Positions 1,266 through 34,882 of a stretch of DNA of 38,206 nucleotides are shown here, piece by piece; the stretch's first letter is position 1, and each line of letters starts with the position of its first letter. Position numbers and translations under genes: made by a program. Origin of the DNA: an uncultured Thermoanaerobaculia bacterium (GTDB lineage Bacteria > Acidobacteriota > Thermoanaerobaculia > Thermoanaerobaculales > Sulfomarinibacteraceae); assembly GCA_964408845.1 (NCBI GenBank), contig CAYPBC010000001.1, positions 1 through 38,206 of the forward strand. Direction: 5' to 3'. The notes under the pieces were generated by a model. That model made no database searches. It had not been told where the DNA came from and saw only the letters and a list, made by a program, of their open reading frames with translations.

Positions 1266-1496
1266 GCACTGGATGATACAAGATCGCCGGCTTCCGTGGG
1301 GGGATCGAAGGTTTTGAACTTGTCCGACGGCGGTCGCCCGCGGAATGCCGCCAACAGGGGAACGGCCCGAAAACGCGAGAGTTCTGGTGACAATCGATCG
1401 ACTGAACGGCCTGTCTTGGACCCCCGAGAGAGTGGGTGTGCTACGTTGGCCGCGGGTCGGCGTGCCCTCATCCCTCAAGAGGAGATCCAACCGACA

Positions 1497-2897: not shown

Positions 2898-2980
2898 GTT
2901 GCGTAGGTGTCAGGACCCAAGTTCAGAATTTCAGGGTTGAAAGATGAGTGTCCGATAGATCCGCGTGGTTGCCTGAGGTG

Positions 2981-11673: not shown

Positions 11674-13188
11674 ATGAGCGATCTTCAGGTTCCGCTACGA
11701 AAACGGAAAGACCTGCAGGACAAGACCTCGACGCTGGCGATCACGGGGGCCAAGTGGGTTGCCATCGGATCGCTGTCGCAAAAGTCGATCCAGATGTTGC
11801 TCATCGTGTTTCTGGCGCGGCTCCTGTCGCCCGAAGATTTCGGCCTGATCGCCGTCGCCTCGCTGATGCTCATTCTTGCGGGACGCGTCAAGCAGCTTGG
11901 GCTCCACGGTGCTCTGGTCCAGCGCAAGGCAGACCTGGAAGAAGCCGCCAACGCCTATTTTTTCCTCAACATCGGGCTCGCGGTGCTGACCTTCGCCCTT
12001 GTTCTTGCGGTTTCCCCCCTCGCTGCCTGGTTTTTCAACGACGAAAGGGTGGCCCTGGTCGTCAACGTCATGGCGCTGAGGCTCCTGGTCGAGGCTGGTG
12101 GAGCCGTGCAGCGATCGCTGACTGTTCGCGCCCTCGACTTTCGTCGGCAGACATTTGTCCTTCTCGCCGAGACCTTGGTGACTGCGGGTGTGGCAGTCTT
12201 GCTGGCCGCCAAGGGTTTCGGCGTATGGGCGCTGGTATTCGGGATGGTACTCGGCGCCGTTTTGGCGGCTGTGCTCTGGTGGGTGACAACCCCTTGGCGT
12301 CCGACCCGTGTATGGAGTTGGCCCGTGGCCCGCCAGATGCTCCGGTTCGGAGTCGGACTCTGGTCGGCGTCCAACCTCAGCTATCTCATCGAATCCGCAA
12401 GTCGGGTTTTTGTCGGACGGTTCCTCGGAGTAGTGCCGCTGGGCTTTTACGAGTTCACGAATCGGGTGGTCCACGGGCCGACCAGCAGCCTGACCGAAAC
12501 GAGCAACCGAGTGGCCCTGCCGGCTTTCTGCCGGGAACAGGAGGATCTCCGACAACTGGGCGTGTGGTACCTCAAGATGACGGGCTACGTTTGTCTGCTC
12601 ACGGCGCCGGTCGCCGCGGTGCTGCTGCTTTTGGGGGACCTGATCATCCCCGTGATCTTCGGTCCCCAGTGGGTGAGCATGATTCCCCTCGTCAGGGCGT
12701 TGGCTCCCTTCGTATTCATGACTCCGCTGGTCTTCGCGTGGCCTGTCTACGTTGCGACCGGCCGGCCCGACGTGCTTATTCGGTTCACTGCACTTCGTTT
12801 TTTCATCACAGTCCCGCTCCTGCTGATGGCGGCCCGGGAGAGCCTTCTCGCGGTCTGCGTCGTGGAGTCCCTGGCAGCGTGTATCTTGGCGCCTGTCAAT
12901 CTGTACCTGGTGACGAGACTGATCTCCGTTCGCTTCTCCGATCTCCTGCGCTCGTTGGGACAGCCGCTCATCGGCAGCGGAGTGTTCGCGGTGGTGGTTC
13001 TGGCGCTGCGATTCCTCGGCCGACGGTGGTTTCCTGCGCACGGTGTGCTGTCGCTTGCGATCTGTCTCCTGACAGGCCTGGTGGCTTATCTGGTCACCAT
13101 GTCCCGCATGCAACCTCAACTCTTTTCGGATCTTCGCCGGCTGATCGTTGTCGCGCTCGGGCGGCATGCCGAGGCTGAACAGGGCTGA
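11674..13188 (+). CDS. Wzx-type polysaccharide flippase (MOP/PST superfamily membrane protein)
   Basis: About 12-14 hydrophobic segments. N-terminal pattern GAKWVAIGSLSQKSIQMLLIVFLARLLSPEDFGLIAVA is typical of the oligosaccharide flippase family. Starts 6 nt after the upstream stop. Confidence 0.8.
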   Translation: MSDLQVPLRKRKDLQDKTSTLAITGAKWVAIGSLSQKSIQMLLIVFLARLLSPEDFGLIAVASLMLILAGRVKQLGLHGALVQRKADLEEAANAYFFLNIGLAVLTFALVLAVSPLAAWFFNDERVALVVNVMALRLLVEAGGAVQRSLTVRALDFRRQTFVLLAETLVTAGVAVLLAAKGFGVWALVFGMVLGAVLAAVLWWVTTPWRPTRVWSWPVARQMLRFGVGLWSASNLSYLIESASRVFVGRFLGVVPLGFYEFTNRVVHGPTSSLTETSNRVALPAFCREQEDLRQLGVWYLKMTGYVCLLTAPVAAVLLLLGDLIIPVIFGPQWVSMIPLVRALAPFVFMTPLVFAWPVYVATGRPDVLIRFTALRFFITVPLLLMAARESLLAVCVVESLAACILAPVNLYLVTRLISVRFSDLLRSLGQPLIGSGVFAVVVLALRFLGRRWFPAHGVLSLAICLLTGLVAYLVTMSRMQPQLFSDLRRLIVVALGRHAEAEQG

Positions 13189-13245: not shown

Positions 13246-14457
13246 TCAACCAGGTAATCCGCTGCTCATTCGTTGGCAGGCCGTCAGATCCCCGCTGTCC
13301 CAGGCGAAGCGGACCCTGAACCCGTCCTCCTCGAGCATGAAGGCCGCCCCCTCCAAGTTCTGCTTGAACACTGGAAACTGAGGTTTGCCCTGTGCGGGCT
13401 TCGAGTAGCCTCCGGGAGCGGTGCAGCACGTCAGGGTCAGCACCACCCCCCCTCCGTAGGTGTTGATCAGATGCCGGTTGAACTCGAAAGTCTCGCGGGT
13501 CTGCAGCCAAAGTGCTCCGTCGAAAAGCACCCTGTCGAGGGCGATGTTCAGCTCGTACTCCTCGTCGGACACTGCGTGCTCCCTGATCGTCATCGAGCCC
13601 AGGAAGCGACCCTTGACCCGTGGGCTGCCGATGATCGAGAAACCTCGTCCCCACCGCGATTTCAGGTACTGGTCGAAGAGATAGAGGATCACCTCCTCCT
13701 TGCGCCAGTCATGAAGCCCCTTCAGAAATGCTCCGGCGACATGCTCGATACCCGCCTCTTTGGCTCGGTCGAAAGAGTCCAACCTGAAGCTCTGGTTTCC
13801 TTTCGGGCCGGTGTTCACGTGGAGCCGGGAGTACTGGCCGGGGTCGAAGGTCTCGAGCCAGGCCAGAAAGCAGTCGAGGCCTGAGGCCTTTAACTCCTCG
13901 AACCCCGGCGTGCAGACTGGCGGGATGTTGCTGGTGATCATCCCGCCGCCCACGTCGGCGAGCTGCCCACCGAGGATTTCGAAATACCGCGCGGTGTTGG
14001 CGACGTCAAAGCGTTGGTCGTCCGGGTCAGTAGAATCCTCGCGAACGAAGAGTTCCGGATCCTGGCTGCTCACCAGCTCGATGCTGCGGTAACCCATCCC
14101 GAGGAGCGCATCCACCTCCTCGCGAAACTCCGCGTGGTTCAGGCGCAGGCCGTTGCCCGTTGAGAAATCGCAGTAGGAGCACTTGTTCTCGCAGATGCTC
14201 GACAAATAGAGGGGCGGCAGGAGCAGGATGTCGTCCTCACGAGGTCTCGCATACCCCTTTGAAAAATCCAGCACCGTGCGCGCGTTAGCGGGTTTAGACA
14301 GGCCGTTCAGCAACGAAACGATCTCCTGGCCGTCGAGGCTCTCGCGGTTGCCCGCCTTCTCCAGCAACTCGAGCGTCTCCCGCTCGCCGATCGGGGTACT
14401 CGAGCCGACCTGTGCGGCCTGCTCGACGAATCCTGGGAATACCTCGCTGAATAACAA
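13246..14457 (-). CDS. ThiH/HydG-family radical SAM enzyme (aromatic amino acid lyase-like)
   Basis: PPLYLSSICENKCSYCDFS matches the ThiH/HydG PLYLSNxCxNxCxYCGF cluster region. The C-terminal TAPGGYSKP...QFPV... resembles ThiH TQPGGY...EQF. TTG start at 14457 with GGAG 6 nt upstream; there is no in-frame ATG in the first ~120 codons. Confidence 0.75.
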   Translation of the reverse strand: MLFSEVFPGFVEQAAQVGSSTPIGERETLELLEKAGNRESLDGQEIVSLLNGLSKPANARTVLDFSKGYARPREDDILLLPPLYLSSICENKCSYCDFSTGNGLRLNHAEFREEVDALLGMGYRSIELVSSQDPELFVREDSTDPDDQRFDVANTARYFEILGGQLADVGGGMITSNIPPVCTPGFEELKASGLDCFLAWLETFDPGQYSRLHVNTGPKGNQSFRLDSFDRAKEAGIEHVAGAFLKGLHDWRKEEVILYLFDQYLKSRWGRGFSIIGSPRVKGRFLGSMTIREHAVSDEEYELNIALDRVLFDGALWLQTRETFEFNRHLINTYGGGVVLTLTCCTAPGGYSKPAQGKPQFPVFKQNLEGAAFMLEEDGFRVRFAWDSGDLTACQRMSSGLPG

Positions 14458-14591
14458 TACGATCTCCGTTCAGGGGATTCTAGCAGGGGCCCCACGAAGC
14501 CGCCACCGCTGCCGATCGACGCTCCCGGTGAGAAACACCGGCTAGAATACACCGAGAGACGGGGCTTGCCGGTTCCGAGATTGAGGGGACG

Positions 14592-15881
14592 ATGTACGGT
14601 GTGTTCAGCCTGTCGCGGTTGGCCGGTAGCCAGTGGCGCAGCCGCGAAGAGCTCGAACGGCGACAGCTGGCCAAGTTGCGCCGGCTGTTGCGCCATGCCT
14701 ACAACAACGTTCCCTTCTACCGCCGTCTCTTCGACGAGGCCGGCATCGCGGTGGATGAGATCGTCGGCCTCGACGACCTTCAGCGCCTGCCCATCGTCAG
14801 GCGCGAGGACATCCAGCCGCTGCCGGAGAGCGATCTCGTTGCGCGGGGCGCCAATCTCTCGACCTGCATCAGGACCCACACCAGCGGCTCCACCGGAGTG
14901 CCGCTTCAGATCATCTCCCGCCGCAGCGACCGCTCGGTCTTCAACCCCTCTTTCCTACGGGTTTACATTGGGTGGGGTCTGCGACCCTGGCACCGGTTGA
15001 CGTACTTCCAGTCCAGACCCGAGTCCCTGAGTCAGAAATCCTGGTACGAACGCCTCGGGATCTTCCGCCGGCAGATGCTATTCTCCCGCGATGACCCCGA
15101 GGTGTGGATCGACGGGCTCCGGCGATGGCGGCCCCACCTGATCCACGGGTACTCGCTGACTCTGAAGCTGCTGGCTGACGCCCTTCGTCACACCGGCACG
15201 ACGGACATCCACGTTCCTCTGGTAATGAGCACCTCCGGTGTGCTCGACGATGTGGCCCGCGAGCTGCTGACCTCGACGCTCGGCTGTCAGGTCGTCGATA
15301 TTTACGCCTCGGAGGAAGCGGGCTCGGTCATTGCCTGGGAGTGTCCTCGGTGCCCCGGATACCACATCGGCCTCGACACTGTGATCGTCGAGTTCGTCAA
15401 GGACGGGCGGCCGGCAGAGCCGGGAGAGGACGCCACCGTGCTGATCACCAACCTCAGCAATTTCACCATGCCGTTCATCCGCTATGACCAGGGTGACGTC
15501 GCCCGCATCTCCAGCCGACAGCCCGTCTGTGGACGAGGCTTTCCTCTGATGGACTCGATCCAGGGCCGCGCCGGCGATTACGTAGTTTTGGGGTCGGGGC
15601 GGAAGCTGACCCCGCACCCCTTCTTCCTCATTCTGGATCACGCAATCGGCGTCGCTCGATGGCAAATCATCCAGGAGTCGCTCGATCGCCTCACCGTGCG
15701 AATGACGATGCCCGATGGCCACGACGCGGTCGAGTGCGAGGCCGTCAGATCCAAGATCCGCGGTCTGGTCGGGGAGGACATGGTGGTCGAGATCGAGGTC
15801 GTCGACCGCTTGGGGCGGAACGCGAGCCAGAAGCTTCGCTCGGTGATCTGCAATCTGCCCGAAGGACAGACGCCGGGGTAA
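14592..15881 (+). CDS. CapK/PaaK-like adenylate-forming enzyme (phenylacetate-CoA ligase / F390 synthetase family)
   Basis: LRHAYNNVPFYRRLFDEAGI...LQRLPIVRREDI N-terminus and AMP-binding motif HTSGSTGVPL. GAGGGGA precedes the ATG. Confidence 0.8.
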   Translation: MYGVFSLSRLAGSQWRSREELERRQLAKLRRLLRHAYNNVPFYRRLFDEAGIAVDEIVGLDDLQRLPIVRREDIQPLPESDLVARGANLSTCIRTHTSGSTGVPLQIISRRSDRSVFNPSFLRVYIGWGLRPWHRLTYFQSRPESLSQKSWYERLGIFRRQMLFSRDDPEVWIDGLRRWRPHLIHGYSLTLKLLADALRHTGTTDIHVPLVMSTSGVLDDVARELLTSTLGCQVVDIYASEEAGSVIAWECPRCPGYHIGLDTVIVEFVKDGRPAEPGEDATVLITNLSNFTMPFIRYDQGDVARISSRQPVCGRGFPLMDSIQGRAGDYVVLGSGRKLTPHPFFLILDHAIGVARWQIIQESLDRLTVRMTMPDGHDAVECEAVRSKIRGLVGEDMVVEIEVVDRLGRNASQKLRSVICNLPEGQTPG

Positions 15882-15905: not shown

Positions 15906-16757
15906 TTACGACCTCGCTCTGGCGTCTTCAGGCGTCTTTTCAAGAATAAATTCTATCGCCCAAGTGCTCAAATCAGCTATCGAAAACTCCTCTGAGAGTG
16001 CCCGCAAGGTGTCCTCGTCCGGTGTCTCATCGTAGATTCGCTTAAAGGATACACAGCGCAATTTCGAGGCAATGGCCATCTCTTCGATATCCGAAGGTGA
16101 AAGACGGTTCAGATTTTTCGAAAAATGGATGTGTTCTACAATCTTCTTCACGTGATCTGGTGGAACGCAGCGCTCGACAAGTCGTTCGTGGAACTCAACA
16201 GGTGAGAATTGGAGATGCTCCCAGGCATTCACCGGCTGTTCGTCGCCACTTCCATTAAAGAAATACCTGGTCCCATCCTCCGCAACAGTCCACAAGTGGT
16301 GGCCTTTCGAACCAGTCCATACGGGCCCGCCGTGGATAAGCGCCCTACCACCAGGTTTGAGCAATTCGGCGATCTTGTCGAGGACCGAAGGGATGTTCAG
16401 GATGTGTTCAATCACGCACGTGCTAAGGACGATGTCAATGCACCCGGTCTTGATATCGACATCCTCAGCAAACGACCCGTAAAGGCGGACATGAGGGTTA
16501 TTAAACTCTTGAATCTTTGTTTGATACCAGGGCTCAGCAAACCAGGGATTTGCCACGATCACATCTTCTGCACCCAATGCGAGACAGGCTAATGCTTCGT
16601 GTTCGGTTCCACCAACTATGAACACTCTTCCGTGAATACCCGGGTTTCTTGAAGCTCTTTGATAAAACGATCTCAAGTAAGGGTGTAACCCGTCAACTCG
16701 GTTCAGAGGCGATTCACCCAAAGAGTCTGTTTGCGACATCTTCTTCTGTTCTTTCAT
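15906..16757 (-). CDS. Class I SAM-dependent methyltransferase (low-GC gene)
   Basis: Motif I-like VFIVGGTEHEA, IDIVLSTCVIEH, LKPGGRALIHG. GC is visibly lower than the flanks, with AGA and TTA codons. Confidence 0.75.
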   Translation of the reverse strand: MKEQKKMSQTDSLGESPLNRVDGLHPYLRSFYQRASRNPGIHGRVFIVGGTEHEALACLALGAEDVIVANPWFAEPWYQTKIQEFNNPHVRLYGSFAEDVDIKTGCIDIVLSTCVIEHILNIPSVLDKIAELLKPGGRALIHGGPVWTGSKGHHLWTVAEDGTRYFFNGSGDEQPVNAWEHLQFSPVEFHERLVERCVPPDHVKKIVEHIHFSKNLNRLSPSDIEEMAIASKLRCVSFKRIYDETPDEDTLRALSEEFSIADLSTWAIEFILEKTPEDARARS

Positions 16758-16904: not shown

Positions 16905-17858
16905 TCACCCGTTGTCGCTCGCGCGAAGAGCCCTGACGGCTTCGGGCAGGGAAGCCACGCGCCGCAGGAAGAGAACGAGCATTCCCGCCGGCACCTCCAG
17001 GAGGCTGAACCCCGCCACCCGCCGGTGACGGAGGAGCCGCTGCCAATCCAGCAGCGTCCGGCCAAGGGTCGCCGCGATCACGCCGGGGACGCCGGCGCGA
17101 ACGAACGCCGCATACCGTATCGAAGGCTCGATCTTCCGCGCTTCGACGAAGCTCCTGCCATAGCGTTTCGCCCTGTCCAGCAGATCCTTCATCTCCACCG
17201 ACGGCCGGTGGACGACGGCGACTCCAGGATCGTAGATCAGCTTCGCGCCCTTCCGGCGCAGCGTCTCGGCGAAGAGGGTATCCCCGCCGGCGCGGGCGAG
17301 ACGCGGATCGAATCGCACCCCACCCAGAACCGTCCGCGTCAGGCCCATGTTGCAGGTTGGGATGGCACGAACCTCCTTGAGTTGAAGACCCTGGTACTCA
17401 CCGAAGTCGGCAATACCGGTCAAACGCTGCCAGAAGCTCCCGCGGTGCAGCACCCTGCCGCCGATCACGGTGTTGGGCTCGTCGATCAGCCGCTCGGTCA
17501 TCCGCGCCAGCCAGTCCGGGAACGCTGTACAGTCCGAGTCAATGAAGGCGATGATCTCGCCCGTGCTCTCCTCGATCCCGCGGTTCCGCGACACATCAGC
17601 GCCCTCGTTGGACTTGCTGATCACCCTCATGCCCGGAAACTCATTTCGGAGCACATCGGCCGTGCCGTCGGTGCTGCCGTCATCCACCACCACGACCTCG
17701 GTCGTCGCCGCCGGGTAGTCCTGCTCCGCGAGTGACTGCAGGCAACCGACGAGGTTGTCGAGATCGTCGTAGGTAACAATGACCACGCTTACGCGAGGAT
17801 GAGCCGGCCCCCGTTCGCCGTCCCCCATGCGCGCATGCGCCTGGCGATGCTCGTTCAT
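16905..17858 (-). CDS. GT2-family glycosyltransferase
   Basis: VSVVIVTYDDLDNLVGCLQSLAEQDYP...EVVVVDDGSTDGT and FIDSDC (DXD). The start overlaps the upstream stop as ATGA. Confidence 0.85.
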   Translation of the reverse strand: MNEHRQAHARMGDGERGPAHPRVSVVIVTYDDLDNLVGCLQSLAEQDYPAATTEVVVVDDGSTDGTADVLRNEFPGMRVISKSNEGADVSRNRGIEESTGEIIAFIDSDCTAFPDWLARMTERLIDEPNTVIGGRVLHRGSFWQRLTGIADFGEYQGLQLKEVRAIPTCNMGLTRTVLGGVRFDPRLARAGGDTLFAETLRRKGAKLIYDPGVAVVHRPSVEMKDLLDRAKRYGRSFVEARKIEPSIRYAAFVRAGVPGVIAATLGRTLLDWQRLLRHRRVAGFSLLEVPAGMLVLFLRRVASLPEAVRALRASDNG

Positions 17859-19204
17859 CGCTCGGCCCGTAAGTTCGAATTGCCGCCGGCCATATCAGGG
17901 TTGGGCGAAATGCTGAGGAAGTCCTCGGCGATGAGGCTGCCGGCGAGCGCCGCACTCTCCTCGACCTCAGGGAGAACCTCCTGCAGATGCTCGCGGATCT
18001 TCGCCTCATCTCGGGATAACGCCTCGAACCGATTCGTGAGCGTCTCCAGCGAGAGGTCCTCGATGGGAACCACGAAGTCTTCGAGACCGAGAGCCGCCAT
18101 GATGCCCCGGGTTTTTGGCTGGTAGGCGATAGCTACGGTCGGCACTCCGAGCGACAGGGCAAAGATGTTGGAGTGCATGCGCGTGCCAACGAAATAATCC
18201 ATCCGGCCGCACTGCCACTTGATCTCCTCCGGGCCCAGCTCGTCCTCCACAATCCGGACCCGGTCGTGGCGAGCCACCGAGGCGACCACGCTGCGGGCCG
18301 CCTCCCGGTCGTCGTCCTCGCCCTCTGCGTACGTGACCTGGGGCAGGAAAACGACCTCGGCACCCCATTCCTCGACCAGCCAGTCCACGAATGACGCCAT
18401 GGTTCGCTCGTACTCCACCTGCTGGTCGGGATTCCGAAACCACTTCCTGACCGTCATACCGATCGTGGGCTTGCCTCTCGTGCCAACGATTCCGAGGCCT
18501 CCGTCGGGCGGGCACGCCTCGAGAAGGAAGGCGGCATCGGTCGCGTTCTGAACCGGTGTCGGCAGATGCCAGCCATCCAGCAGCCGCCTCGACACACCCT
18601 CTCGAACCTCCACCAAGCGCACCCTGGAGAGCGCCTGGCGCACGATCCATGCCTGCAACGTGCCGGCGAAGGGGCCGATGGACTGGGCGTAGAGAGAGAC
18701 CGGCTTGCCGAGCAGTACTCCGAAGAAGAAGCTGTAGACGGTGATCAGCAGCACCACGTTGCCGTGGATCGCCGAGGTCGTGTAGAGGTAACCCCCGCCG
18801 GCCGCAACCACCAGATCCGCACGGGCGTAGGCCCGCATCAGCTCGCGAAGAGGCCAGGGGAGCGAAAGGTCGAGCCCCCCCAGCCGCCAGGCGATGGCCC
18901 ACAGCAGGCTCAAAGGCAGCAACACGACGAGGAAGTACAGGGAATTGACACTCGAGCTGCTCGAAAACCTGTTCTTGAGCGAGTGAAAGGACGGAAGCAC
19001 CTGCACGGGATAGCGCGCCGTGTCGGCTGGGTAGTCGGCCGACGAGACCCGGATCTCCGCCTCCCGAAAAACCTCGGTGCGGCGCAGACTCTCCGCCATG
19101 CCGAGGATGATTGCTGCATCCCCCCGATTGCTAGCGCTGTACGCATTGGTGATGAGAATCTCCGTCATTGTCCCAGTCGAGTTTAGCAGTGGGTACCACC
19201 CCAC
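17855..19204 (-). CDS. Polysaccharide pyruvyl transferase family protein (WcaK/CsaB-like)
   Basis: ILITNAYSASNRGDAAIILG near the N-terminus and DYFVGTRMHSNIFALSLGVPTVAIAYQPKTRG near the C-terminus. The ORF track begins at GTG 19204; ATG 19168 (MTEILITN) is an equally good start. Confidence 0.75.
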   Translation of the reverse strand: MGWYPLLNSTGTMTEILITNAYSASNRGDAAIILGMAESLRRTEVFREAEIRVSSADYPADTARYPVQVLPSFHSLKNRFSSSSSVNSLYFLVVLLPLSLLWAIAWRLGGLDLSLPWPLRELMRAYARADLVVAAGGGYLYTTSAIHGNVVLLITVYSFFFGVLLGKPVSLYAQSIGPFAGTLQAWIVRQALSRVRLVEVREGVSRRLLDGWHLPTPVQNATDAAFLLEACPPDGGLGIVGTRGKPTIGMTVRKWFRNPDQQVEYERTMASFVDWLVEEWGAEVVFLPQVTYAEGEDDDREAARSVVASVARHDRVRIVEDELGPEEIKWQCGRMDYFVGTRMHSNIFALSLGVPTVAIAYQPKTRGIMAALGLEDFVVPIEDLSLETLTNRFEALSRDEAKIREHLQEVLPEVEESAALAGSLIAEDFLSISPNPDMAGGNSNLRAER

Positions 19205-19288: not shown

Positions 19289-21730
19289 ATGCAGATCTCA
19301 AGAACAATTTGCCTCGGCGTCGGAGCGGCTCTCCTGCTCGCCTCAGCGGGATGTGCGAGTAGCTCCTCGAAGAAACCCTACGTTGGGCCCACGAAGAGCG
19401 CCTTGGTCACCGCAGATTTGCCCCCACTCGTGTACGACTGGCCGCTGGATGTCCAAAGGTATTGGGTTGGACCGGACTTTTGGGCCAACCGGGTCCAGGA
19501 TTGGCAGGTAACCGGCGGCCGGCTCGTCTGTCTTGCAACTAGCCGGCGCCAGCCGCTGCGCACGGCACATTGCATCACCCGGGAAATCGCACCAGGAGCG
19601 GAGAGCTTTCACATCTCCGTGCGCCTCGGCCTGGTGGCCGAGAACAACCACCGGGGATGGAGCGGCATCATCTTCGGCGTCGGAGGTGGAGAGCTCGACC
19701 ACAAACGCGCCGCGATGGTCCACCACAATCCCGGCCCCGGCGGGGGCATCCTGGCAGCCTACAAGCTCATCGGAGGGGTCGAGTTCTTCGACAATAACGA
19801 AGACACACGGACGTTCTACAGAGCCTCCTCGCTCGAGGCAGACGGCGACGCGGCTCAACACCAGCGCACGGCGGACGAGGATGTGCGGCTCGACCTGCGC
19901 GGGACGCCTGCAGGTGATGGCCTCTTTGATCTCAGGTTGTCGGCGACCGATCTCATAACGGGACGCCTGATCGATGAAAAGACCCTTCGCGGGGTTCCTG
20001 AAGCGGACATTCTCGGGGGAATCGGTCTCTTTGCCCACCCGAAGTCAGAGGGAGAGGCCGCACAGTTCTGGTTCGACGAGTTCAGAGCCGGCGGCGCCAA
20101 GGTCGCGGTCCACCCGGAAAGGGCCTTCGGTCCGGTCGCAAGCACCCTGTACAGCCTCGCCGACAAAACCCTCAAGCTCTCCGCTCAATTTGTCTTGCTG
20201 GGCGAGGGGGAACCTCTGGAAGCCACCCTGCAGAAAAGACTCAGCGGGACTGACCACACGTGGCAGGAAGTGGCGTCCGCGCAGATCGTCATTCCGGGAT
20301 GGACCGCCCTGTTTCGCTGCGAGGATTGGGACGATTCGAGGGCATGGGACTTCCGCGTGGTGTATCGTGATGGCGAGGGCGCAACCCATAGATACTCCGG
20401 GGTGATTGGCAAACCTCCCACCGATCAGGATGAGGTGGTGATGGCGGCCTACACCGGCATGATGATCATGGGTATTCCCGCGGACTTCAGTTGGGGGAGC
20501 AAGGGCTATGGACTCCCCGAAAGCCGGTGGATCAAGGAGAACCTCTGGTTCCCACACGAGGATATCGTCAGGAACACCCTGGCCTTGGGCGCCGACATCC
20601 TCTTCTTCACCGGCGACCAGATCTACGATTCGGGGAACCCCACGGCAGGCGACTCCTCTTCACTCATCTTGGACTACATGAACCGCTGGTACTACTGGTG
20701 CTGGGCCTTCGGTGAGCTGACGCGGCAGATGCCGGCAATTCTTCAGGTGGACGACCACGACGTCTACCAAAGCAACATCTGGGGTTGGGGCGGAAAGCGC
20801 AACACAGCCCGCGATGTGGCGCTCGGCGGATACCTGCAGGGGCCCGCGTTCGTGAACATGGTCCAAAGGGTGCAATGTGGGCACGACCCTGACCCGTACG
20901 ATCCGACCCCCGTCGAGCAGGGGATCACCGTCTACTACACGGGTTTCGAATATGGGGGGGTTGGATTCGCGGTGATCGAGGACCGCAAGTTCAAGACGCC
21001 ACCGGGGTATGACGGAGACCGGCCAGTCTTGCTCGGTGATCGACAGCAGCGGTTTTTGGCCGAGTGGGCCGAGGACTGGGAAAACCAGGACCTCAAGGTA
21101 TGCGTGAGCCAGACCAACTTTGGGTCCATTCTGACTTACGCGGGCGGTGGTCTCGGCGGGAGTAGGGATACTAATGCGGCGCCGGTCGAAGGGCGTCGTC
21201 GCGCATTGAAGTCCCTGCGCGTGGCCGGGGCCGTCGTTGTTGCCGGCGATACCCATCTGGCCACGCTTGTGCGGGCGGGGATCGACACGCCCACCGACGG
21301 CGTCTACATGTTCACTGTTCCGCCCGTCGCCAACAAGTTCCGGCGGTGGTTCGACCCCGCGTGGCCGGGCGAGAACCACCCCGACGGTGCACCGAACTAC
21401 GTCGGCGACTTCACAGACAGATTCGGGAATCCGATGCGCGTGCTTGCGGTGGCAAATCCGACGGTCTCCCAGGCCGAGGTCGAGTCCTGGAATGCCGAGC
21501 GGGGGCGCAGGGACTCGTTCGGGGTGATCGGGCGGGAGTTCGTTCGCGACGGATTCGGGATCGTGAGACTCAACAAGCGGGAACGGACCGTGCGCTTCGA
21601 GTGCTGGCCGTGGAACGCAGATATCACCGAGGGCGACGCTGCCCAGTTCGAAGGCTGGCCGGTAACGATCAGAGTCGAGGCGCCGTTGAAGAAAAGACAA
21701 CCGCGCAACCAAAACCGAGAGTCGGATTAG
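19289..21730 (+). CDS. Lipoprotein with PhoD-like metallophosphatase domain
   Basis: Signal peptide plus lipobox LLLASAGC. GGAGGA upstream. C-terminal half has FFTGDQIYDSG, LQVDDHDVYQSNIWG, VIEDRKFK and VVAGDTHLATLV, which resemble PhoD-type phosphodiesterase or phosphatase motifs. The N-terminal ~380 aa are unassigned. Confidence 0.55.
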   Translation: MQISRTICLGVGAALLLASAGCASSSSKKPYVGPTKSALVTADLPPLVYDWPLDVQRYWVGPDFWANRVQDWQVTGGRLVCLATSRRQPLRTAHCITREIAPGAESFHISVRLGLVAENNHRGWSGIIFGVGGGELDHKRAAMVHHNPGPGGGILAAYKLIGGVEFFDNNEDTRTFYRASSLEADGDAAQHQRTADEDVRLDLRGTPAGDGLFDLRLSATDLITGRLIDEKTLRGVPEADILGGIGLFAHPKSEGEAAQFWFDEFRAGGAKVAVHPERAFGPVASTLYSLADKTLKLSAQFVLLGEGEPLEATLQKRLSGTDHTWQEVASAQIVIPGWTALFRCEDWDDSRAWDFRVVYRDGEGATHRYSGVIGKPPTDQDEVVMAAYTGMMIMGIPADFSWGSKGYGLPESRWIKENLWFPHEDIVRNTLALGADILFFTGDQIYDSGNPTAGDSSSLILDYMNRWYYWCWAFGELTRQMPAILQVDDHDVYQSNIWGWGGKRNTARDVALGGYLQGPAFVNMVQRVQCGHDPDPYDPTPVEQGITVYYTGFEYGGVGFAVIEDRKFKTPPGYDGDRPVLLGDRQQRFLAEWAEDWENQDLKVCVSQTNFGSILTYAGGGLGGSRDTNAAPVEGRRRALKSLRVAGAVVVAGDTHLATLVRAGIDTPTDGVYMFTVPPVANKFRRWFDPAWPGENHPDGAPNYVGDFTDRFGNPMRVLAVANPTVSQAEVESWNAERGRRDSFGVIGREFVRDGFGIVRLNKRERTVRFECWPWNADITEGDAAQFEGWPVTIRVEAPLKKRQPRNQNRESD

Positions 21731-22860
21731 GTCTTTTGGCCGAATCGGCCAAACCGATGTCTCGTCATCTCCAACAATGTCCGCGGCAGGTCCTTCTCGA
21801 TCTCCCAGCGCGTCCGCGTGTACGGGGGGCAGTGCCGGCACTCGGCCTGCTGCAGGTCCCGTTTTCGGTACTCGAGGTTGCTCGGGTCGTAGTAGATCTC
21901 CCGCGGCGAATCGTCCAGACAGCTGCCGATCTCCTTGCTGTGCGAGCAGTAGTAGAGCCGGCCGTCGTGACCCAGGAGAAGACCGCCCATGGCGTAGTGG
22001 CAAGCCAGGGACCTCGTCTTCCGCCCCTCCAACATGGCCGCGAGCTCACGGTACTTGCCCGCCGAGGCCGCAGACTGAGAGGGGTCCTCCACGAGGCTAC
22101 GCAGGAAATCGATCAAGGGCTTCTGGCCGTCGGGATCCACGAAGGCCTCGTCCAGCCCCTCGGTGCGGAACCTGCGTCTGCGCTCCCCGACCACGAAGCT
22201 GAGGGGGATCCCCCGACCTTGGGCCCACTTTCTCAGCTGTCCGGCGCTGGTGAGGTTCTCCGACAGCAGAACGCAGTTCATCGAAAAGCTCAGCTGTTCT
22301 TCATCGCGAAGCTCCTCCAGAACCCCGATCGTCTGTTCGATCTTCTCGAAGGCTCCCTCCACACCGTAGATCCCCGCCAGCGTCTCGCCCATGCCGTGCA
22401 CGGAAACCGACACATCCAGAAGCGCGCCGGCGCTTAGTGCACGGTCCGCGATCTCGGGAAGTACGGTGCGTATGCGCTGGGTGAGCAGGCCGTTGGTGGT
22501 CAGGCTGAGGCGTTTGACCGTCCGGCACTCCTCCAGAAACACCGCACTCAGCTCCGCCAAGTCATCGCGAAGGAACGGCTCGCCCCCGCTGATTCCGACA
22601 AACTCCATACACGAAAACAGCCGGTCGCCCACGATCCCGCTCAGCGCTTCGGGCGACAGCTCCTCGGCGCGAGTTCCGGTCTCCTTCCAGATGCCGCACA
22701 TCACGCAGCGCGCGTTGCACCGGTGGGTCGAGATGAAGTCCATCGCGCGCGGGAGACCTGGCTGGGAGCGCAGGGGCTCGACGAGGTTGTGGCGAAACCA
22801 CACCGCAGCCGCCTCGGCGGCCAGGGAAACTGTTTCGCGGGCCGAACGCCGGCGGCTCAT
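21727..22860 (-). CDS. Radical SAM / SPASM-domain enzyme
   Basis: ORF 21727..23601 trimmed to ATG 22860 (MSRRRSARE), which overlaps the upstream stop as ATGA. CX3CX2C read as THRCNARCVMCGIW. ISGGEPFL. C-terminal pattern CHYAMGG...GRLYYCSH...GSC...AECRHCPPY. Confidence 0.8.
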   Translation of the reverse strand: MSRRRSARETVSLAAEAAAVWFRHNLVEPLRSQPGLPRAMDFISTHRCNARCVMCGIWKETGTRAEELSPEALSGIVGDRLFSCMEFVGISGGEPFLRDDLAELSAVFLEECRTVKRLSLTTNGLLTQRIRTVLPEIADRALSAGALLDVSVSVHGMGETLAGIYGVEGAFEKIEQTIGVLEELRDEEQLSFSMNCVLLSENLTSAGQLRKWAQGRGIPLSFVVGERRRRFRTEGLDEAFVDPDGQKPLIDFLRSLVEDPSQSAASAGKYRELAAMLEGRKTRSLACHYAMGGLLLGHDGRLYYCSHSKEIGSCLDDSPREIYYDPSNLEYRKRDLQQAECRHCPPYTRTRWEIEKDLPRTLLEMTRHRFGRFGQKT

Positions 22861-24329
22861 GCCCCGGCTGCCTCCGCAGGCTTCGCAGACCGCCGGCTCC
22901 CCGGCAAGAACCGGCGCTTGAGCTTGCGCCACAGCAACGGGCCGCCGATAGCGGGTGGGATGCTGATGAAGTGCGTGCCGAAGTTGATGCACGTCATGTA
23001 CATGAGCTCGAAGAACCGGTTGGGCGGGAGCTTGATCAGTAGCCGGATCACGGGCTTCAACCACGGGAACCAGACCACTAAGGGGAAGAACTTGTGGAGA
23101 TTCTCGATCTGCCGGATTTCCCCCGCGTCGTTGCCCTTCAGGGCGGTGGTGAATCCGAACCCGCCCTGGGAGACCCTCTCCAGATGATCGTCCTCCAGAA
23201 GGCCGAGATCCTCTGCAATCTCGTGGATCTCGGTTCCTGGGAAGGCCTGGAGAATCGCCGCGGAGGCATAGTTGGGGCGGGCACGGATGTTCAGATCCAC
23301 GGTCTCCCAATCCTCGTCGATCGTTCCCCCGGGGATGGCCAGGATGTTGGCGGTCACAAGCTTGATCTTGGCCCCACGGATGATCCTCGCAGCCTCGAGG
23401 ATCTGCTCCGAGGACATGCGGCGCTTGAGGATCTCCAAGCGCAGGCGGTCGTTGCCCGCCTCGATCCCCATCATGATCCGGTGACAGCCGGCTTCCTTCA
23501 GGCTCCTGACAATCTCCTCGGTGACCAGGTTGGCCCTGACGAGGCACGTGAACGGGAGACCGATCTCCTCCCGATACCTGCGCGAGAACTCCTTCACCCA
23601 TTCGGGCAGGAGGATGAAGAGGTCGTCCATAAAGCGGATGAACCCGCAGCCGTCCTCCTTGAGCTGTCGCAGCTCGCGCATCACATGATCGACGCTACGC
23701 CGCCGGACCACATTGCCCTTGCCCGCGTAGAGCTTGTGATAGACGTGGTTGTAGCAGTAGCTGCAGTGGTAGGGGCAGCCACGACCGGTCATGACGATGG
23801 CGTGCGAGATTGACTGGTCGGCGGCGCGACGGAAGATGCCGCGGTCTGGAACCGGAAGCTCGTCGAGGTCCTCAATGAGGGGGCGAACCGCGTTGCGGTG
23901 GATGGTGCCGTTGTCCTTGATCCACCAGTTTTCGAGCGATTTGACGGACTCGCCTGCCGCACGAGCCATGACCAGCTCGAGCATCGGGTACTCGCCCTCC
24001 CCGACACAGACGCCGTCGACGCCCTCCTCCTCGACCATCTTGGGGAAGTAGGTCGGATGGGTCCCTCCGAAGACCGAAAACACCTGTGGGTGCCTCCGCT
24101 TGAGCTGCCGGTTGAGCTCGACGTAGACCGTCGCCAGGGCGGACGGGGTGCTGTAGGCGAGGATGACCTCATCGTCGCGCTCGACCCTCTTCGAGATAAG
24201 CTCGAGGTCGGTTGGAACGACCTCCGTCGAGATGCCGTGCTCCTTGAGCACGGCCGAGATCGTCATGATCCCCAGATACTGGCTGTGATCCATCTCGAGC
24301 TGATGGACCGGCCACAAGACGAGCATCAC
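22857..24329 (-). CDS. B12-binding-domain radical SAM enzyme (class B type)
   Basis: N-terminal Rossmann-like part ending VFGGTHPTYFP...VCVGEGEYPMLEL, then MTGRGCPYHCSYCYN (CX3CX2C). Start is GTG 24329 or ATG 24326 (GTGATG), overlapping the upstream stop. Confidence 0.85.
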   Translation of the reverse strand: MMLVLWPVHQLEMDHSQYLGIMTISAVLKEHGISTEVVPTDLELISKRVERDDEVILAYSTPSALATVYVELNRQLKRRHPQVFSVFGGTHPTYFPKMVEEEGVDGVCVGEGEYPMLELVMARAAGESVKSLENWWIKDNGTIHRNAVRPLIEDLDELPVPDRGIFRRAADQSISHAIVMTGRGCPYHCSYCYNHVYHKLYAGKGNVVRRRSVDHVMRELRQLKEDGCGFIRFMDDLFILLPEWVKEFSRRYREEIGLPFTCLVRANLVTEEIVRSLKEAGCHRIMMGIEAGNDRLRLEILKRRMSSEQILEAARIIRGAKIKLVTANILAIPGGTIDEDWETVDLNIRARPNYASAAILQAFPGTEIHEIAEDLGLLEDDHLERVSQGGFGFTTALKGNDAGEIRQIENLHKFFPLVVWFPWLKPVIRLLIKLPPNRFFELMYMTCINFGTHFISIPPAIGGPLLWRKLKRRFLPGSRRSAKPAEAAGA

Positions 24330-29721: not shown

Positions 29722-29838
29722 CCCGGTGAACCCCCGTCGCTCTCGAGACGATTGTACCTGTGCGTCGGGCCCACGAAGCTCCCGTCAGTACCACGGCCGA
29801 TGCAGTAGACTCTCCCCGAGAGGTTCGGAAATCGATCA

Positions 29839-31035: not shown

Positions 31036-31056
31036 CCCCCTTTTTCTCACCGTGCG

Positions 31057-34881: not shown

Positions 34882-34882
34882 C

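What the first reader, a model, noticed from the sequence alone, without database searches (positions are those of the whole stretch)
13246..15881. ThiH/HydG-like radical SAM lyase divergently paired with a CapK/PaaK-like adenylating enzyme inside a glycan cluster
The 403-aa protein has the ThiH/HydG-type cluster context (PLYLSSICENKCSYCDFS) and the C-terminal PGGY...QF region. Characterised members of this family (ThiH, HydG, NosL, CofH) cleave the C-alpha to C-beta bond of Tyr or Trp. It shares a 134-nt divergent promoter region with an ATP-dependent acyl-adenylate-forming enzyme of the phenylacetate-CoA ligase/CapK family. A methyltransferase, a GT2 and a pyruvyl transferase follow, and a DAHPS-chorismate mutase lies 6 kb away. 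One hypothesis is that an aromatic-amino-acid-derived fragment is generated by radical chemistry, activated by adenylation and attached to the glycan. I know of no described polysaccharide pathway that uses a ThiH-like enzyme.
Basis: partly seen in the sequence, partly recalled or inferred. Interest (0 to 1): 0.7.

Follow-up and report, generated by a model that had tools for sequence, protein, structure and literature searches.

The report
Radical-SAM/ligase tailoring module in polysaccharide loci
A diverged relative of the tyrosine-cleaving enzymes ThiH and HydG sits next to a CapK-type ATP-dependent ligase and two more radical SAM enzymes in the exopolysaccharide gene clusters of uncultured Acidobacteriota, so it probably puts an undescribed amino-acid-derived decoration on a sugar polymer and is not a vitamin B1 gene.

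Summary
A 403-aa ThiH/HydG-like radical SAM protein (13246-14457, minus) and a 429-aa CapK/PaaK-like adenylating enzyme (14592-15881, plus) are divergent across 134 nt inside a Wzx-dependent glycan cluster. The radical SAM protein is not ThiH: it scores 126 bits against a thiH cutoff of 380, and no thi genes are nearby. It belongs to a discrete clade of about 220 proteins, all from metagenome-assembled genomes and mostly Acidobacteriota. It keeps the Thr/Arg pair that binds the amino-acid backbone but lacks the phenolate-stabilising Arg306 and Glu158 of ThiH. The pairing is strongly conserved: 23 of 24 loci with full flanks carry the CapK-like gene within 6 kb. The one exception has a TupA-like ATP-grasp ligase instead. 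The unit is larger than a pair. A B12-binding radical SAM enzyme, a SPASM/twitch-like radical SAM enzyme, a Wzx flippase and usually a pyruvyl transferase travel with it, and some loci add an EgtD-like amino-acid N-methyltransferase. The DAHPS-chorismate mutase link is not conserved. A 2026 paper shows the CapK-like VpsH is needed to add glycine to a uronic acid. The ligase may therefore activate the glycan carboxylate instead of the radical product. The chemistry is unknown, and I found no description of this module.

The parts
13246..14457 (-). ThiH/HydG-like radical SAM enzyme (403 aa). It is a member of a discrete, uncharacterised clade.
   Evidence: CX3CX2C is C89/C93/C96, invariant in 17 homologs. 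NCBIfam gives thiH 125.8 bits (cutoff 380) and HydG 85.2 bits (cutoff 312). All 17 family members hit both models well short of those cutoffs; the best thiH E-value is 1.8e-38. Foldseek matches HydG, ThiH and NosL at TMq 0.80, 0.77 and 0.69. T320/R321 correspond to ThiH T299/R300. N327 replaces R306, N177 replaces E158, T341 replaces S318 and C/S344 replaces S321.
14458..14591 (.). 134-nt divergent intergenic region between the two genes
   Evidence: Sequence read directly. No sigma-70 consensus promoter was found.
14592..15881 (+). CapK/PaaK-like adenylate-forming ligase (429 aa)
   Evidence: PDB PaaK 4r1l at 84 bits. NCBIfam DVU_1553 family at 131 bits and PaaK at 92-110 bits, all below cutoff. 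Nine orthologs conserve TSG(S/T)TGxP, DxYxxxE, MPxIRYxxxD, GRxxD and the C-terminal KxRxV. The 97%-identical P0271 carries PF27533 CapK_C.
22857..24329 (-). B12-binding-domain radical SAM enzyme (490 aa), a conserved module member
   Evidence: Pfam B12-binding plus Radical_SAM. Best NCBIfam hit is HpnJ at 119 bits (cutoff 577). Best PDB hit is AprD4 6fd2 at 74 bits. A B12-rSAM of one of two subtypes lies within 6 kb of the ThiH-like gene in 18 of 24 full loci.
21727..22860 (-). Second module radical SAM enzyme (377 aa) with a C-terminal Cys-rich SPASM/twitch-like region
   Evidence: Pfam Radical_SAM at 52.5 bits. Only weak NCBIfam hits such as MoaA, AhbC/D and PqqE. Orthologs at 36-78% identity occur in most loci and often overlap the CapK-like stop codon. 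Its ATG overlaps the TGA of the B12-rSAM gene as ATGA.
11674..13188 (+). Wzx-type MOP flippase, tail-to-tail with the ThiH-like gene
   Evidence: Pfam Polysacc_synt_3 at 228 bits. A Wzx-like gene lies within about 2 kb of the ThiH-like gene in 26 of 41 loci.
17855..19204 (-). Polysaccharide pyruvyl transferase. It usually co-occurs and is the only carboxylate-installing enzyme encoded in the cluster.
   Evidence: Pfam PS_pyruv_trans at 113 bits. Found within 6 kb in 15 of 24 full loci and within 10 kb in more.
24326..25171 (-). Class I SAM methyltransferase, conserved in the window's sub-clade next to the B12-rSAM gene
   Evidence: Pfam Methyltransf_11/25. Orthologs at 41-53% identity in 10 loci.
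15906..16757 (-). Methyltransferase-like protein (283 aa). It is variable and specific to this window.
   Evidence: Weak Methyltransf_11 hit at 29.6 bits. No ortholog in 41 loci.
16905..17858 (-). GT2 glycosyltransferase of the same operon
   Evidence: Pfam Glycos_transf_2 at 105 bits. Syntenic in the window's sub-clade.

Best explanation
The gene pair is the visible half of a conserved four-enzyme tailoring module. The module comprises a ThiH/HydG-like radical SAM enzyme, a B12-domain radical SAM enzyme, a CapK-type adenylate-forming ligase and a SPASM/twitch-like radical SAM enzyme. It travels with its own Wzx flippase, with methyltransferases and usually with a pyruvyl transferase, and it is embedded in Wzx/Wzy-type exopolysaccharide clusters of anaerobic, uncultured Acidobacteriota and a few other phyla.

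Proposed mechanism (inferred, not shown). The ThiH/HydG-like enzyme binds a free alpha-amino acid, probably an aromatic one, through its retained Thr320/Arg321 pair. It abstracts the amino hydrogen with 5'-deoxyadenosyl radical and breaks or rearranges a C-alpha bond. Because the phenolate-stabilising Arg and the ThiH Glu158 are replaced, the substrate and/or the scission differ from the Tyr-to-dehydroglycine reaction. The result is a non-standard amino-acid-derived building block. In some lineages an EgtD-like enzyme N-methylates it, and the B12 radical SAM enzyme and SAM methyltransferases modify it further.

The CapK-type ligase then uses ATP to join that building block to the lipid-linked repeat unit by an amide or ester bond. 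Two directions are possible. It could adenylate a glycan carboxylate (a uronic acid or the pyruvate ketal), following the VpsH precedent. Or it could adenylate the building block, following the NosL/NosI precedent. The dedicated Wzx then flips the decorated unit.

What is shown: family placement, residue pattern, fold, module composition and co-inheritance. What is inferred: substrate, product, direction of ligation and acceptor.
For: 1. It is not ThiH or HydG but is their closest kin. thiH scores 126 bits (cutoff 380) and HydG 85 bits (cutoff 312), and all 17 family members hit both models with E-values no better than 1.8e-38 and 5.1e-31. The profile search against PDB gives HydG 148 bits, ThiH 98 bits, and NosL and PylB below 40 bits. 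Foldseek ranks HydG, ThiH and NosL first.
2. It is a discrete clade. Full-length family representatives score 615 and 444 bits (two fragments 459-466). There is then a gap to 315, 234 and below 200 bits.
3. Active-site pattern. T299/R300 of ThiH bind the Tyr amino and carboxyl groups (PMC9046217) and are kept as invariant T320/R321. R306 becomes invariant N327 and E158 becomes N177.
4. Co-occurrence. The CapK-like gene lies within 6 kb in 33 of 41 loci and in 23 of 24 loci with at least 6 kb on both flanks. Identities of the two proteins to the window copies correlate across loci (r = 0.87, n = 28).
5. Non-orthologous replacement. In L036 a TupA-like ATP-grasp ligase (PF14305, 189 bits) lies 55 bp downstream in place of CapK. 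L021 and L022 carry a weak FemAB-like GNAT.
6. An EgtD/EasF-family amino-acid N-methyltransferase lies between the ThiH-like and CapK-like genes in L024 (PF10017, 108 bits). Related proteins occur in L037, L015 and L040.
7. CapK-type ligases are glycan enzymes. VpsH is required for the glycine substituent on GulNAcA in Vibrio polysaccharide (PMC13463779). A CapK_C+GT2 fusion exists (P0388), and CapK_C genes sit in other glycan loci.
8. The adenylation motifs are conserved.
9. Seven Pfam-annotated neighbourhoods were checked. Six show glycan genes and the seventh (L002) only a Wzx; none has thiG, thiS, hydE or hydF.
Against: No biochemical data exist for any member, and all sequences come from uncultured organisms. 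The retained Thr/Arg pair shows only that an alpha-amino-acid-like ligand is plausible. The substrate could instead be a glycan-bound amino acid or an amino sugar acid. One locus (L002) has the module and a Wzx but no glycosyltransferase or pyruvyl transferase within 10 kb, so a non-glycan product is conceivable. No UDP-sugar 6-dehydrogenase appears in the window or in the seven annotated neighbourhoods, so the glycan carboxylate needed for a VpsH-like reaction is not evident apart from the pyruvate ketal. The EgtD-like gene is present in only about 4 of 41 loci. I could not retrieve the VpsH sequence, so homology of the window ligase to VpsH itself was not tested.
Confidence: 0.45

Rival explanations
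1. Post-attachment trimming. The CapK-like ligase first amide-links a whole amino acid to a glycan carboxylate, as VpsH does with glycine. The ThiH-like enzyme then acts on the glycan-bound residue and cleaves its side chain. This would leave a glycyl or dehydroglycyl group or a primary amide. The other radical SAM enzymes would modify the remnant further.
For: The VpsH precedent for CapK-like amino-acid addition. The ThiH-like and CapK-like genes are adjacent or divergent in most loci. R306 and E158, which in ThiH fix free tyrosine, are changed. The family has an insertion of about 18 aa after beta2 that could open the site to a larger substrate.
Against: In ThiH, NosL and HydG the conserved Arg contacts a free alpha-amino and alpha-carboxylate group. 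An N-acylated residue would lose the amine that is the site of H abstraction. The EgtD-like enzymes found in some loci act on free amino acids (established knowledge of the EgtD/EasF family). No member of this fold is known to take a polymer-bound substrate.
Confidence: 0.2
2. CofH-like radical transfer. The ThiH-like enzyme cleaves tyrosine and delivers the 4-hydroxybenzyl fragment directly onto a sugar or other acceptor. The methyltransferases then cap the phenol. The CapK-like ligase performs a separate, unrelated amidation.
For: CofH, a Tyr-dependent relative, transfers the hydroxybenzyl group (named in NCBIfam TIGR03551). The hydroxyl 'crown' residues T320, T341 and S/C344 are retained. 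Several SAM methyltransferases are conserved in the module.
Against: CofH-family models score only 16 bits. It does not explain the near-obligate co-inheritance with an ATP-dependent ligase, or the replacement of that ligase by an ATP-grasp enzyme in L036.
Confidence: 0.1
3. The four enzymes plus the MOP-family transporter make and export a small molecule or lipid unrelated to the polysaccharide. The location in glycan loci is incidental.
For: L002 has Wzx, the ThiH-like gene, B12-rSAM, the CapK-like gene, rSAM2 and two methyltransferases, with no GT or pyruvyl transferase within 10 kb. The MOP superfamily also contains drug and metabolite exporters (established knowledge).
Against: In six of the seven Pfam-annotated neighbourhoods, and in most tblastn-mapped loci, the module is interleaved with GT2/GT4 glycosyltransferases, pyruvyl transferase, an initiating phosphoglycosyl transferase or sugar-nucleotide enzymes. 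The transporter hits the Wzx-type Pfam families Polysacc_synt and Polysacc_synt_3. CapK_C ligases are fused to GT2 in P0388.
Confidence: 0.1
4. It is a housekeeping thiamine ThiH (2-iminoacetate synthase), or a HydG-like maturase supplying CO/CN-type ligands, that merely happens to lie in the cluster.
For: ThiH and HydG are the best-scoring characterised families.
Against: Scores are far below both curated cutoffs in the window protein, and all 17 members hit these models only weakly. R306 and E158 are replaced. There is no HydG C-terminal domain or auxiliary-cluster cysteines: the protein is 403 aa and the only other invariant Cys is C196. No thiG, thiS, thiF or hydE/hydF was seen in the seven Pfam-annotated neighbourhoods or in the window ORFs that were scanned. 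Glycan-cluster context is conserved across phyla.
Confidence: 0.03

Closest known systems
ThiH (2-iminoacetate synthase) and HydG: radical SAM tyrosine lyases
   Same: Same fold: a full TIM barrel with an N-terminal alpha-domain, at TM 0.76-0.84. Same CX3CX2C motif, the 'TRE' loop with the substrate-binding Thr/Arg, the PGGY...QF C-terminal region, and Asn at the ThiH-E158 position as in HydG.
   Different: Identity is 22-29%, and scores are far below the equivalog cutoffs. The phenolate-stabilising Arg306 is an invariant Asn. There is a family-specific invariant Glu127 ('IELV') and 'SSQD' in place of the GGE-type motif. An insertion of about 18 aa follows beta2. There is no HydG C-terminal cluster domain and no thi or hyd gene context; the context is a glycan cluster instead.
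NosL + NosI (nosiheptide): a radical SAM tryptophan lyase makes 3-methyl-2-indolic acid, and an adenylating enzyme activates and attaches it. The pathway logic is from my own knowledge of the literature; the NosL reaction is described in PMC9046217.
   Same: It pairs a ThiH-family radical SAM amino-acid C-C lyase with an ATP-dependent adenylating enzyme and a further radical SAM methylating enzyme. Like NosL, the window protein lacks the Arg306 equivalent.
   Different: NosL is only a distant relative: 28 bits by sequence, 21.5 bits on the NosL model against a cutoff of 400, and TMq 0.69. NosI is a different class of ligase. The target there is a ribosomal peptide, not a glycan.
VpsH of Vibrio cholerae (PaaK/CapK-like; required for the glycine modification of L-GulNAcA on the lipid-linked VPS disaccharide; PMC13463779)
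   Same: It is a PaaK/CapK-like ATP-dependent enzyme in a Wzx/Wzy polysaccharide locus that installs an amino-acid substituent on the lipid-linked repeat unit.
   Different: The vps locus as described in that paper includes no radical SAM partner. The substituent there is plain glycine on a uronic acid, and no uronic-acid-forming gene is visible here.
PylB + PylC (pyrrolysine): a radical SAM amino-acid mutase of the same BioB/ThiH/HydE fold group, plus an ATP-grasp amide ligase. The pathway is from my own knowledge.
   Same: The logic is the same: a radical SAM enzyme reshapes a free amino acid, and an ATP-dependent ligase attaches it through an amide. All 17 family members give weak PylB hits. 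In L036 the partner ligase is an ATP-grasp enzyme.
   Different: Similarity to PylB is low (32 bits; TMq 0.58). There is no pylD or pylS context, and the acceptor is presumably a glycan.
AprD4 and HpnJ: B12-domain radical SAM enzymes acting on sugar moieties. They are the closest relatives of the module's B12-rSAM.
   Same: Near full-length similarity to AprD4 (6fd2, 74 bits) and HpnJ (119 bits). Both act on carbohydrate-derived substrates (established knowledge).
   Different: Scores are far below family cutoffs (500 and 577). The function here is untested, and it could equally be a C-methyltransferase.

Membership tests
Radical SAM superfamily (PF04055) | CX3CX2C [4Fe-4S] motif and a Pfam score above the gathering cutoff | tested here: met
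   C89-x3-C93-x2-C96 is invariant in 17 homologs. PF04055 scores 35.5 bits against a cutoff of 29.5.
ThiH (TIGR02351, 2-iminoacetate synthase) | Equivalog HMM score of at least 380 bits | tested here: not met
   The window protein scores 125.8 bits, and the best E-value among 17 family members is 1.8e-38. It is 29% identical to E. coli ThiH.
ThiH (TIGR02351, 2-iminoacetate synthase) | L-Tyr binding set E158, T299, R300, R306, S318, S321 (TcThiH numbering, PMC9046217) | tested here: not met
   T320 and R321 are kept. S318 becomes T341 and S321 becomes C/S344. R306 becomes invariant N327 and E158 becomes invariant N177.
ThiH (TIGR02351, 2-iminoacetate synthase) | Genomic association with thiG, thiS and thiF | tested here: not met
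   No thi gene was found among the window ORFs scanned or in seven Pfam-annotated homolog neighbourhoods. For comparison, E. coli thiH sits in thiCEFSGH.
ThiH/HydG/NosL fold group | Full (beta-alpha)8 radical SAM barrel with an N-terminal alpha-domain, and best structural match to these enzymes | tested here: met
   AF2 model pLDDT 89.9 and pTM 0.90. Foldseek gives 4wcx at TMq 0.80, 7pd2 at TMq 0.77 and TMt 0.84, and 4r33 at TMq 0.69, all ahead of PylB, HydE, MqnE and BioB.
HydG (TIGR03955) | Equivalog score of at least 312 bits, and a C-terminal domain of about 90 aa with an auxiliary Fe-S cluster | tested here: not met
   It scores 85.2 bits. The protein ends at residue 403, where the alignment to HydG stops at about residue 389 of 480. 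Apart from the SAM-cluster cysteines, the only invariant Cys is C196.
NosL (TIGR04158, 3-methyl-2-indolic acid synthase) | Equivalog score of at least 400 bits | tested here: not met
   It scores 21.5 bits.
ANL/PaaK-type adenylate-forming enzymes | P-loop T/S-S-G-S/T-T-G-x-P, the Y..E, RY...D and GR..D motifs, and a C-terminal catalytic Lys | tested here: met
   HTSGSTGVP, DIYASEEAG, IRYDQGDV, GRAGD and K..R.V are conserved in 9 orthologs. The protein aligns with PaaK structures 4r1l and 2y27.
PaaK (phenylacetate-CoA ligase, TIGR02155 / NF041878) | Equivalog scores of at least 646 and 700 bits | tested here: not met
   It scores 92.5 and 109.7 bits.
CapK-type glycan-locus ligases (Pfam PF27533 CapK_C) | Match to the CapK_C model | tested here: inconclusive
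   The evidence is indirect. The 97%-identical cluster representative P0271 and many homologs carry a precomputed PF27533.1 hit. The local Pfam copy reported no CapK_C hit even for L040's CapK_C-annotated protein, so it probably lacks the model.
VpsH-like amino-acid:glycan ligase function | ATP-dependent addition of an amino acid or amine to a glycan carboxylate | not testable with these tools
   Only literature precedent is available (PMC13463779).

The most novel reading that the evidence does not exclude
A previously unrecognised clade of ThiH/HydG-type radical SAM enzymes performs new C-C scission or rearrangement chemistry on an aromatic amino acid. Its product is further worked on by a B12-domain and a SPASM-type radical SAM enzyme. 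A CapK-type ligase then grafts it onto an exopolysaccharide, possibly onto a pyruvate-ketal carboxylate. This would be a class of glycan decoration and a biosynthetic logic (the 'NosL/NosI logic applied to sugars') not yet described.
Probability: 0.35. Interest if true: 0.85.

Novelty: new variant of a known kind. Interest (0 to 1): 0.62.

Why it matters
Characterised ThiH-family enzymes (ThiH, HydG, NosL, CofH) each revealed distinctive radical chemistry. This is a well-delimited clade of about 220 sequences with a changed active-site pattern, a fixed set of partner enzymes, and a context that points to a product: a substituent on a polysaccharide. That makes the function experimentally tractable. 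If the mechanism holds, it would add a new kind of non-carbohydrate decoration to bacterial glycans. It would give a role to three co-inherited radical SAM enzymes. It would extend the newly reported role of CapK/VpsH-type ligases in amino-acid decoration of glycans. It also concerns the extracellular matrix of abundant but uncultured anaerobic Acidobacteriota (Thermoanaerobaculia, Holophagae, Aminicenantes), about which very little is known. Finally, it corrects a systematic mis-annotation: JGI labels these proteins '2-iminoacetate synthase ThiH'.

Tried and rejected
1. Housekeeping ThiH. Rejected on HMM cutoffs, residues and context.
2. DAHPS-chorismate mutase as a precursor supplier. It is a neighbour only in the window and L005, and is absent next to the module elsewhere, so it was dropped from the unit.
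3. A link to the DVU_1553/DVU_1556 cassette, suggested by the best NCBIfam hits. Scores are far below cutoff (131 against 300; 20-53 against 155), and a paper mentioning 'ThiH-like' in Desulfovibrio concerns an unrelated gene.
4. The idea that the radical SAM enzymes next to the sulfatases are anaerobic sulfatase maturases. No anSME model appears among the listed NCBIfam hits for 10660-11667 or 21727-22890.
5. Promoter scan of the divergent gap. No sigma-70-like site was found, which is uninformative for this phylum.
6. Literature searches for ThiH-like, HydG-like or NosL-like enzymes in polysaccharide pathways found nothing relevant.
7. A first greedy ORF clustering picked wrong-strand ORFs in high-GC loci and under-counted families. 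I replaced it with tblastn mapping.
8. Pfam gave no domain for the CapK-like protein. Family assignment rests on PDB and NCBIfam hits and on precomputed CapK_C annotations of homologs.
9. One call failed on wrong coordinates and was repeated correctly.

Full report
**Observation**

13246-14457 (minus strand) encodes a 403-aa protein that starts with TTG and contains PLYLSSICENKCSYCDFS and PGGY...QF. 14592-15881 (plus strand) encodes a 429-aa protein. The two are separated by 134 nt.

The surrounding genes are a glycan cluster:
- GT4, 9428-10717
- radical SAM/SPASM, 10660-11667
- Wzx flippase, 11674-13188
- methyltransferase, 15906-16757
- GT2, 16905-17858
- pyruvyl transferase, 17855-19204
- PhoD-like protein, 19289-21730
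- a second radical SAM gene, 21727-22860
- B12-binding radical SAM, 22857-24329
- methyltransferase, 24326-25171
- two GT4 genes, 25153-27593

A DAHP-synthase/chorismate-mutase fusion lies at 6890-7960. A consensus scan found no sigma-70-like promoter in the gap. The 'divergent promoter' is therefore inferred from geometry only.

**What the radical SAM protein is**

Pfam sees only the generic Radical_SAM domain. NCBIfam places the protein nearest ThiH (125.8 bits, cutoff 380) and HydG (85.2 bits, cutoff 312). PylB, NosL and CofH score 32 bits or less. All 17 diverse homologs hit the ThiH and HydG models; their best E-values (1.8e-38 and 5.1e-31) match the weak score of the window protein.

Against solved structures, a family profile scores HydG 4wcx at 148 bits, HydG 4rtb at 134, ThiH 7pd1 at 98, PylB at 38 and NosL at 29. 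Identity to E. coli ThiH is 29%. An AlphaFold2 model built on the 17-sequence alignment is confident (pLDDT 89.9, pTM 0.90). Foldseek ranks HydG (TMq 0.80), ThiH (TMq 0.77, TMt 0.84) and NosL (0.69) ahead of PylB, HydE, MqnE and BioB. The fold assignment to the aromatic-amino-acid-lyase group is therefore sound.

**Active-site comparison**

The L-Tyr-bound ThiH structure paper (PMC9046217) names these substrate contacts:
- R300 binds the amino and carboxyl groups.
- E158 pairs with the carboxylate. It is Asn in HydG.
- T299, S318 and S321 form a hydroxyl crown around the phenolate.
- R306 stabilises the phenolate. It is conserved in ThiH and HydG and absent from NosL.

Mapping these through the HMMER and MAFFT alignments gives the following for the family:

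| ThiH residue | Family residue |
|---|---|
| T299 / R300 | T320 / R321, invariant, in a 'QTRE' loop |
| S318 | T341, invariant |
| S321 | C or S at 344 |
| R306 | N327, invariant |
| E158 | N177, invariant |

The family also has an invariant E127 in an 'IELV' strand that ThiH and HydG lack. It has 'SSQD' where those enzymes have 'TGE' or 'AGED'. It carries an insertion of about 18 residues after beta2. It has no HydG-type C-terminal domain, and its only invariant cysteine beyond the SAM-cluster triad is C196.

My reading, which is inference, is that the site still fits an alpha-amino acid. The determinants that make ThiH and HydG tyrosine C-alpha/C-beta lyases are altered.

**How big and how separate the family is**

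A word-indexed search found 224 relatives, and the best 120 are 53-95% identical. Every hit that carries a source name comes from a metagenome or a MAG. Named sources are Acidobacteriota, Thermoanaerobaculales and Aminicenantes, and JGI labels them '2-iminoacetate synthase'.

An exhaustive profile search of 1.84 billion representatives gave full-length family representatives at 615 and 444 bits (two fragments at 459-466). The scores then drop to 315, 234 and below 200 bits. The next clades are themselves uncharacterised ThiH-like proteins, scoring 170-230 bits on the thiH model against a cutoff of 380. They share IELV, N177 and TRE and also lack the R306 equivalent. A genuine HydG (P0141, 607 bits on the HydG model) scores only 177 bits against the family profile. 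The window protein therefore belongs to a discrete clade inside a larger unexplored radiation next to ThiH and HydG.

**Is the pairing conserved?**

Yes. I fetched 33 loci from species-representative genomes and 8 more from metagenome contigs. They come from Acidobacteriota (Thermoanaerobaculia, Holophagae, Aminicenantes). There are also MAGs labelled Verrucomicrobiota, PVC group, delta proteobacterium and 'Eubacteriales', and one Woesearchaeota contig.

tblastn mapping finds a CapK-like gene within 6 kb of the ThiH-like gene in 33 of 41 loci. It is usually within 2.6 kb. Among loci with at least 6 kb on both sides the count is 23 of 24.

The eight loci without it break down as follows:
- Four are cut by a contig end on the relevant side (L014, L017, L027, L031).
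- L036 has a TupA-like ATP-grasp ligase (PF14305, 189 bits) 55 bp downstream, followed by a FadD-type AMP-binding enzyme.
- L021 and L022 have a 346-aa protein with a weak FemAB-like GNAT hit.
- L037 is a short archaeal contig.

Identities of the two proteins to the window copies co-vary across loci (r = 0.87, n = 28), consistent with co-inheritance. The ligase family itself is broader. CapK_C-annotated homologs occur in other glycan loci without a ThiH-like gene (L043, L044), and one is fused to a GT2 domain.

**The unit is larger than a pair**

Across loci the ThiH-like gene travels with several partners (unless noted):
- a B12-binding radical SAM enzyme, in two subtypes about 25% identical to each other (18 of 24 full loci);
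- a second radical SAM enzyme of about 375 aa with a C-terminal Cys-rich region (14 of 24 at the strict threshold);
- a Wzx-type flippase, immediately adjacent (26 of 41);
- usually a pyruvyl transferase and SAM methyltransferases.

In Aminicenantes-type loci the order is Wzx, ThiH-like, B12-rSAM, (EgtD-like MT), CapK-like, rSAM2, MT, pyruvyl transferase. The CapK-like stop codon overlaps the rSAM2 start.

In the window's sub-clade the same genes are split. ThiH-like and CapK-like are divergent. B12-rSAM and rSAM2 form an ATGA-overlapping pair 6 kb away.

The window's B12-rSAM is most like AprD4 (6fd2, 74 bits, near full length) and HpnJ (119 bits). Both act on sugar-derived substrates, but the scores are far below the family cutoffs. 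rSAM2 has no informative relative.

An EgtD/EasF-family methyltransferase lies between the ThiH-like and CapK-like genes in L024 (PF10017, 108 bits; EgtD model 79 bits). Members of that family N-methylate the alpha-amino group of aromatic amino acids. Related proteins occur in L037, L015 and L040.

The DAHPS-chorismate mutase gene is next to the cluster only in the window and its closest relative L005. It is not part of the conserved unit.

**The ligase**

The protein aligns with PaaK structures. Nine orthologs conserve the adenylate-forming motifs TSG(S/T)TGxP, DxYxxxE, MPxIRYxxxD, GRxxD and a C-terminal KxRxV. It fails the PaaK, F390-synthetase and DVU_1553 equivalog cutoffs. Close homologs, including one 97% identical, are annotated with Pfam CapK_C.

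The only functional evidence I found for this kind of enzyme in a glycan pathway is genetic and comes from a July 2026 paper. V. cholerae VpsH, described as PaaK-related and CapK-like, is required to add glycine to the L-GulNAcA residue of the lipid-linked VPS disaccharide. [quoted passage not shown] I could not obtain the VpsH sequence, so I could not test direct homology.

**Mechanism**

The best-supported reading is a glycan-tailoring module that makes an amino-acid-derived substituent and attaches it. Four observations point to 'amino-acid-derived group joined by an ATP-dependent ligase':
- the retained Thr/Arg amino-acid-binding pair;
- the occasional EgtD-like partner;
- the near-obligate presence of an ATP-dependent carboxylate ligase;
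- the replacement of that ligase by an ATP-grasp enzyme in L036.

The loss of R306 and E158 argues that the reaction is not simply tyrosine to dehydroglycine plus p-cresol. Two precedents share the same logic: NosL/NosI in nosiheptide and PylB/PylC in pyrrolysine (my own knowledge of those pathways).

The sequence evidence cannot decide several points:
- which amino acid is the substrate;
- which bond is broken;
- what the acceptor is.

No UDP-sugar 6-dehydrogenase appears in the window or in seven annotated neighbourhoods. The co-travelling pyruvyl transferase therefore provides the only cluster-encoded carboxylate. A pyruvate-ketal amide is an intriguing possibility but remains speculative.

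The rivals are listed with their tests in the rival-explanations section. They are post-attachment trimming of a glycan-bound residue, CofH-like hydroxybenzyl transfer, an unrelated exported small molecule, and a housekeeping ThiH or HydG-like function.

**Novelty and verdict**

I found no paper describing a ThiH-, HydG- or NosL-like enzyme in a polysaccharide pathway. No curated family captures this clade. The parts belong to known superfamilies, and amino-acid decoration of glycans by CapK-like enzymes now has a precedent. I therefore rate it a new variant of a known kind. There is a substantial chance (about 0.35) that the chemistry and the decoration are truly new.

Its interpretation is partly supported. 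It is right about family, non-ThiH status, conserved pairing and absence from the literature. It is wrong to include the DAHPS-CM gene, incomplete about the size of the module, and unproven (possibly reversed) on what the ligase activates.

Noticed in passing
window 531-2897 (+), 5439-6842 (+), 31057-34110 (-); 2948-3847 (+), 3870-4721 (-): There are three sulfatase-family proteins and two sulfotransferases in one 38-kb window. A sulfatase also sits next to the Wzx gene in many related loci (L006, L010, L011, L013, L032, L034, L035, L041). This suggests the polysaccharide is sulfated or that sulfate esters are remodelled.
   Followed up: partly
window 162-1727 (-) versus 531-2897 (+): A 521-aa ORF with an STM4011-family radical SAM hit (84 bits) overlaps about 1.2 kb of the 5' part of a 788-aa sulfatase ORF. 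The sulfatase domain of that ORF only begins at residue 361. The true gene boundaries are unclear, and the sulfatase probably starts further downstream.
   Followed up: partly
window 29760-31190 (+): This ORF is a further B12-binding-domain protein with weak KedN5- and HpnJ-like hits. It is 46% identical to the module's B12 radical SAM enzyme by BLAST. Counting the 162-1727 ORF, the window has six radical-SAM-related ORFs in all.
   Followed up: no
window 19289-21730 (+): An 813-aa PhoD-like protein is inserted between the pyruvyl transferase and rSAM2 in this window only; no ortholog was found in 41 related loci. Other loci carry a type I phosphodiesterase (PF01663) directly upstream of the ThiH-like gene (L003, L025, L029, L039). 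An alkaline-phosphatase-superfamily enzyme may therefore be a loose accessory of the module.
   Followed up: partly
window 8425-9345 (-): A 306-aa protein with no Pfam or NCBIfam match. It is conserved (74% identity) only in the closest relative, L005.
   Followed up: partly
window 34129-35773 (-) and 35751-38009 (-): An ABC-2 transporter pair (ATPase plus permease) lies next to a 752-aa GT1/GT2 fusion. This points to a second, ABC-transporter-dependent glycan pathway adjacent to the Wzx-dependent one.
   Followed up: no
window 22857-22860: The start codon of rSAM2 overlaps the stop codon of the B12 radical SAM gene (ATGA). In other lineages rSAM2 instead overlaps the stop of the CapK-like gene by 4 nt. 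The partner of this translational coupling has therefore switched between sub-clades.
   Followed up: yes
L016, L018, L019 (about 12.8-15.4 kb in each locus): In several Aminicenantes-type loci the CapK-like gene is duplicated in tandem. The two copies are 38-44% identical to the window protein. This hints at two ligation steps or two substrates.
   Followed up: no
P0128-P0151 (one search hits): There is a broad radiation of other uncharacterised ThiH-like clades, scoring 170-230 bits on the thiH model. They share the IELV, N177 and TRE pattern and also lack the ThiH/HydG Arg306. Their contexts were not examined.
   Followed up: no
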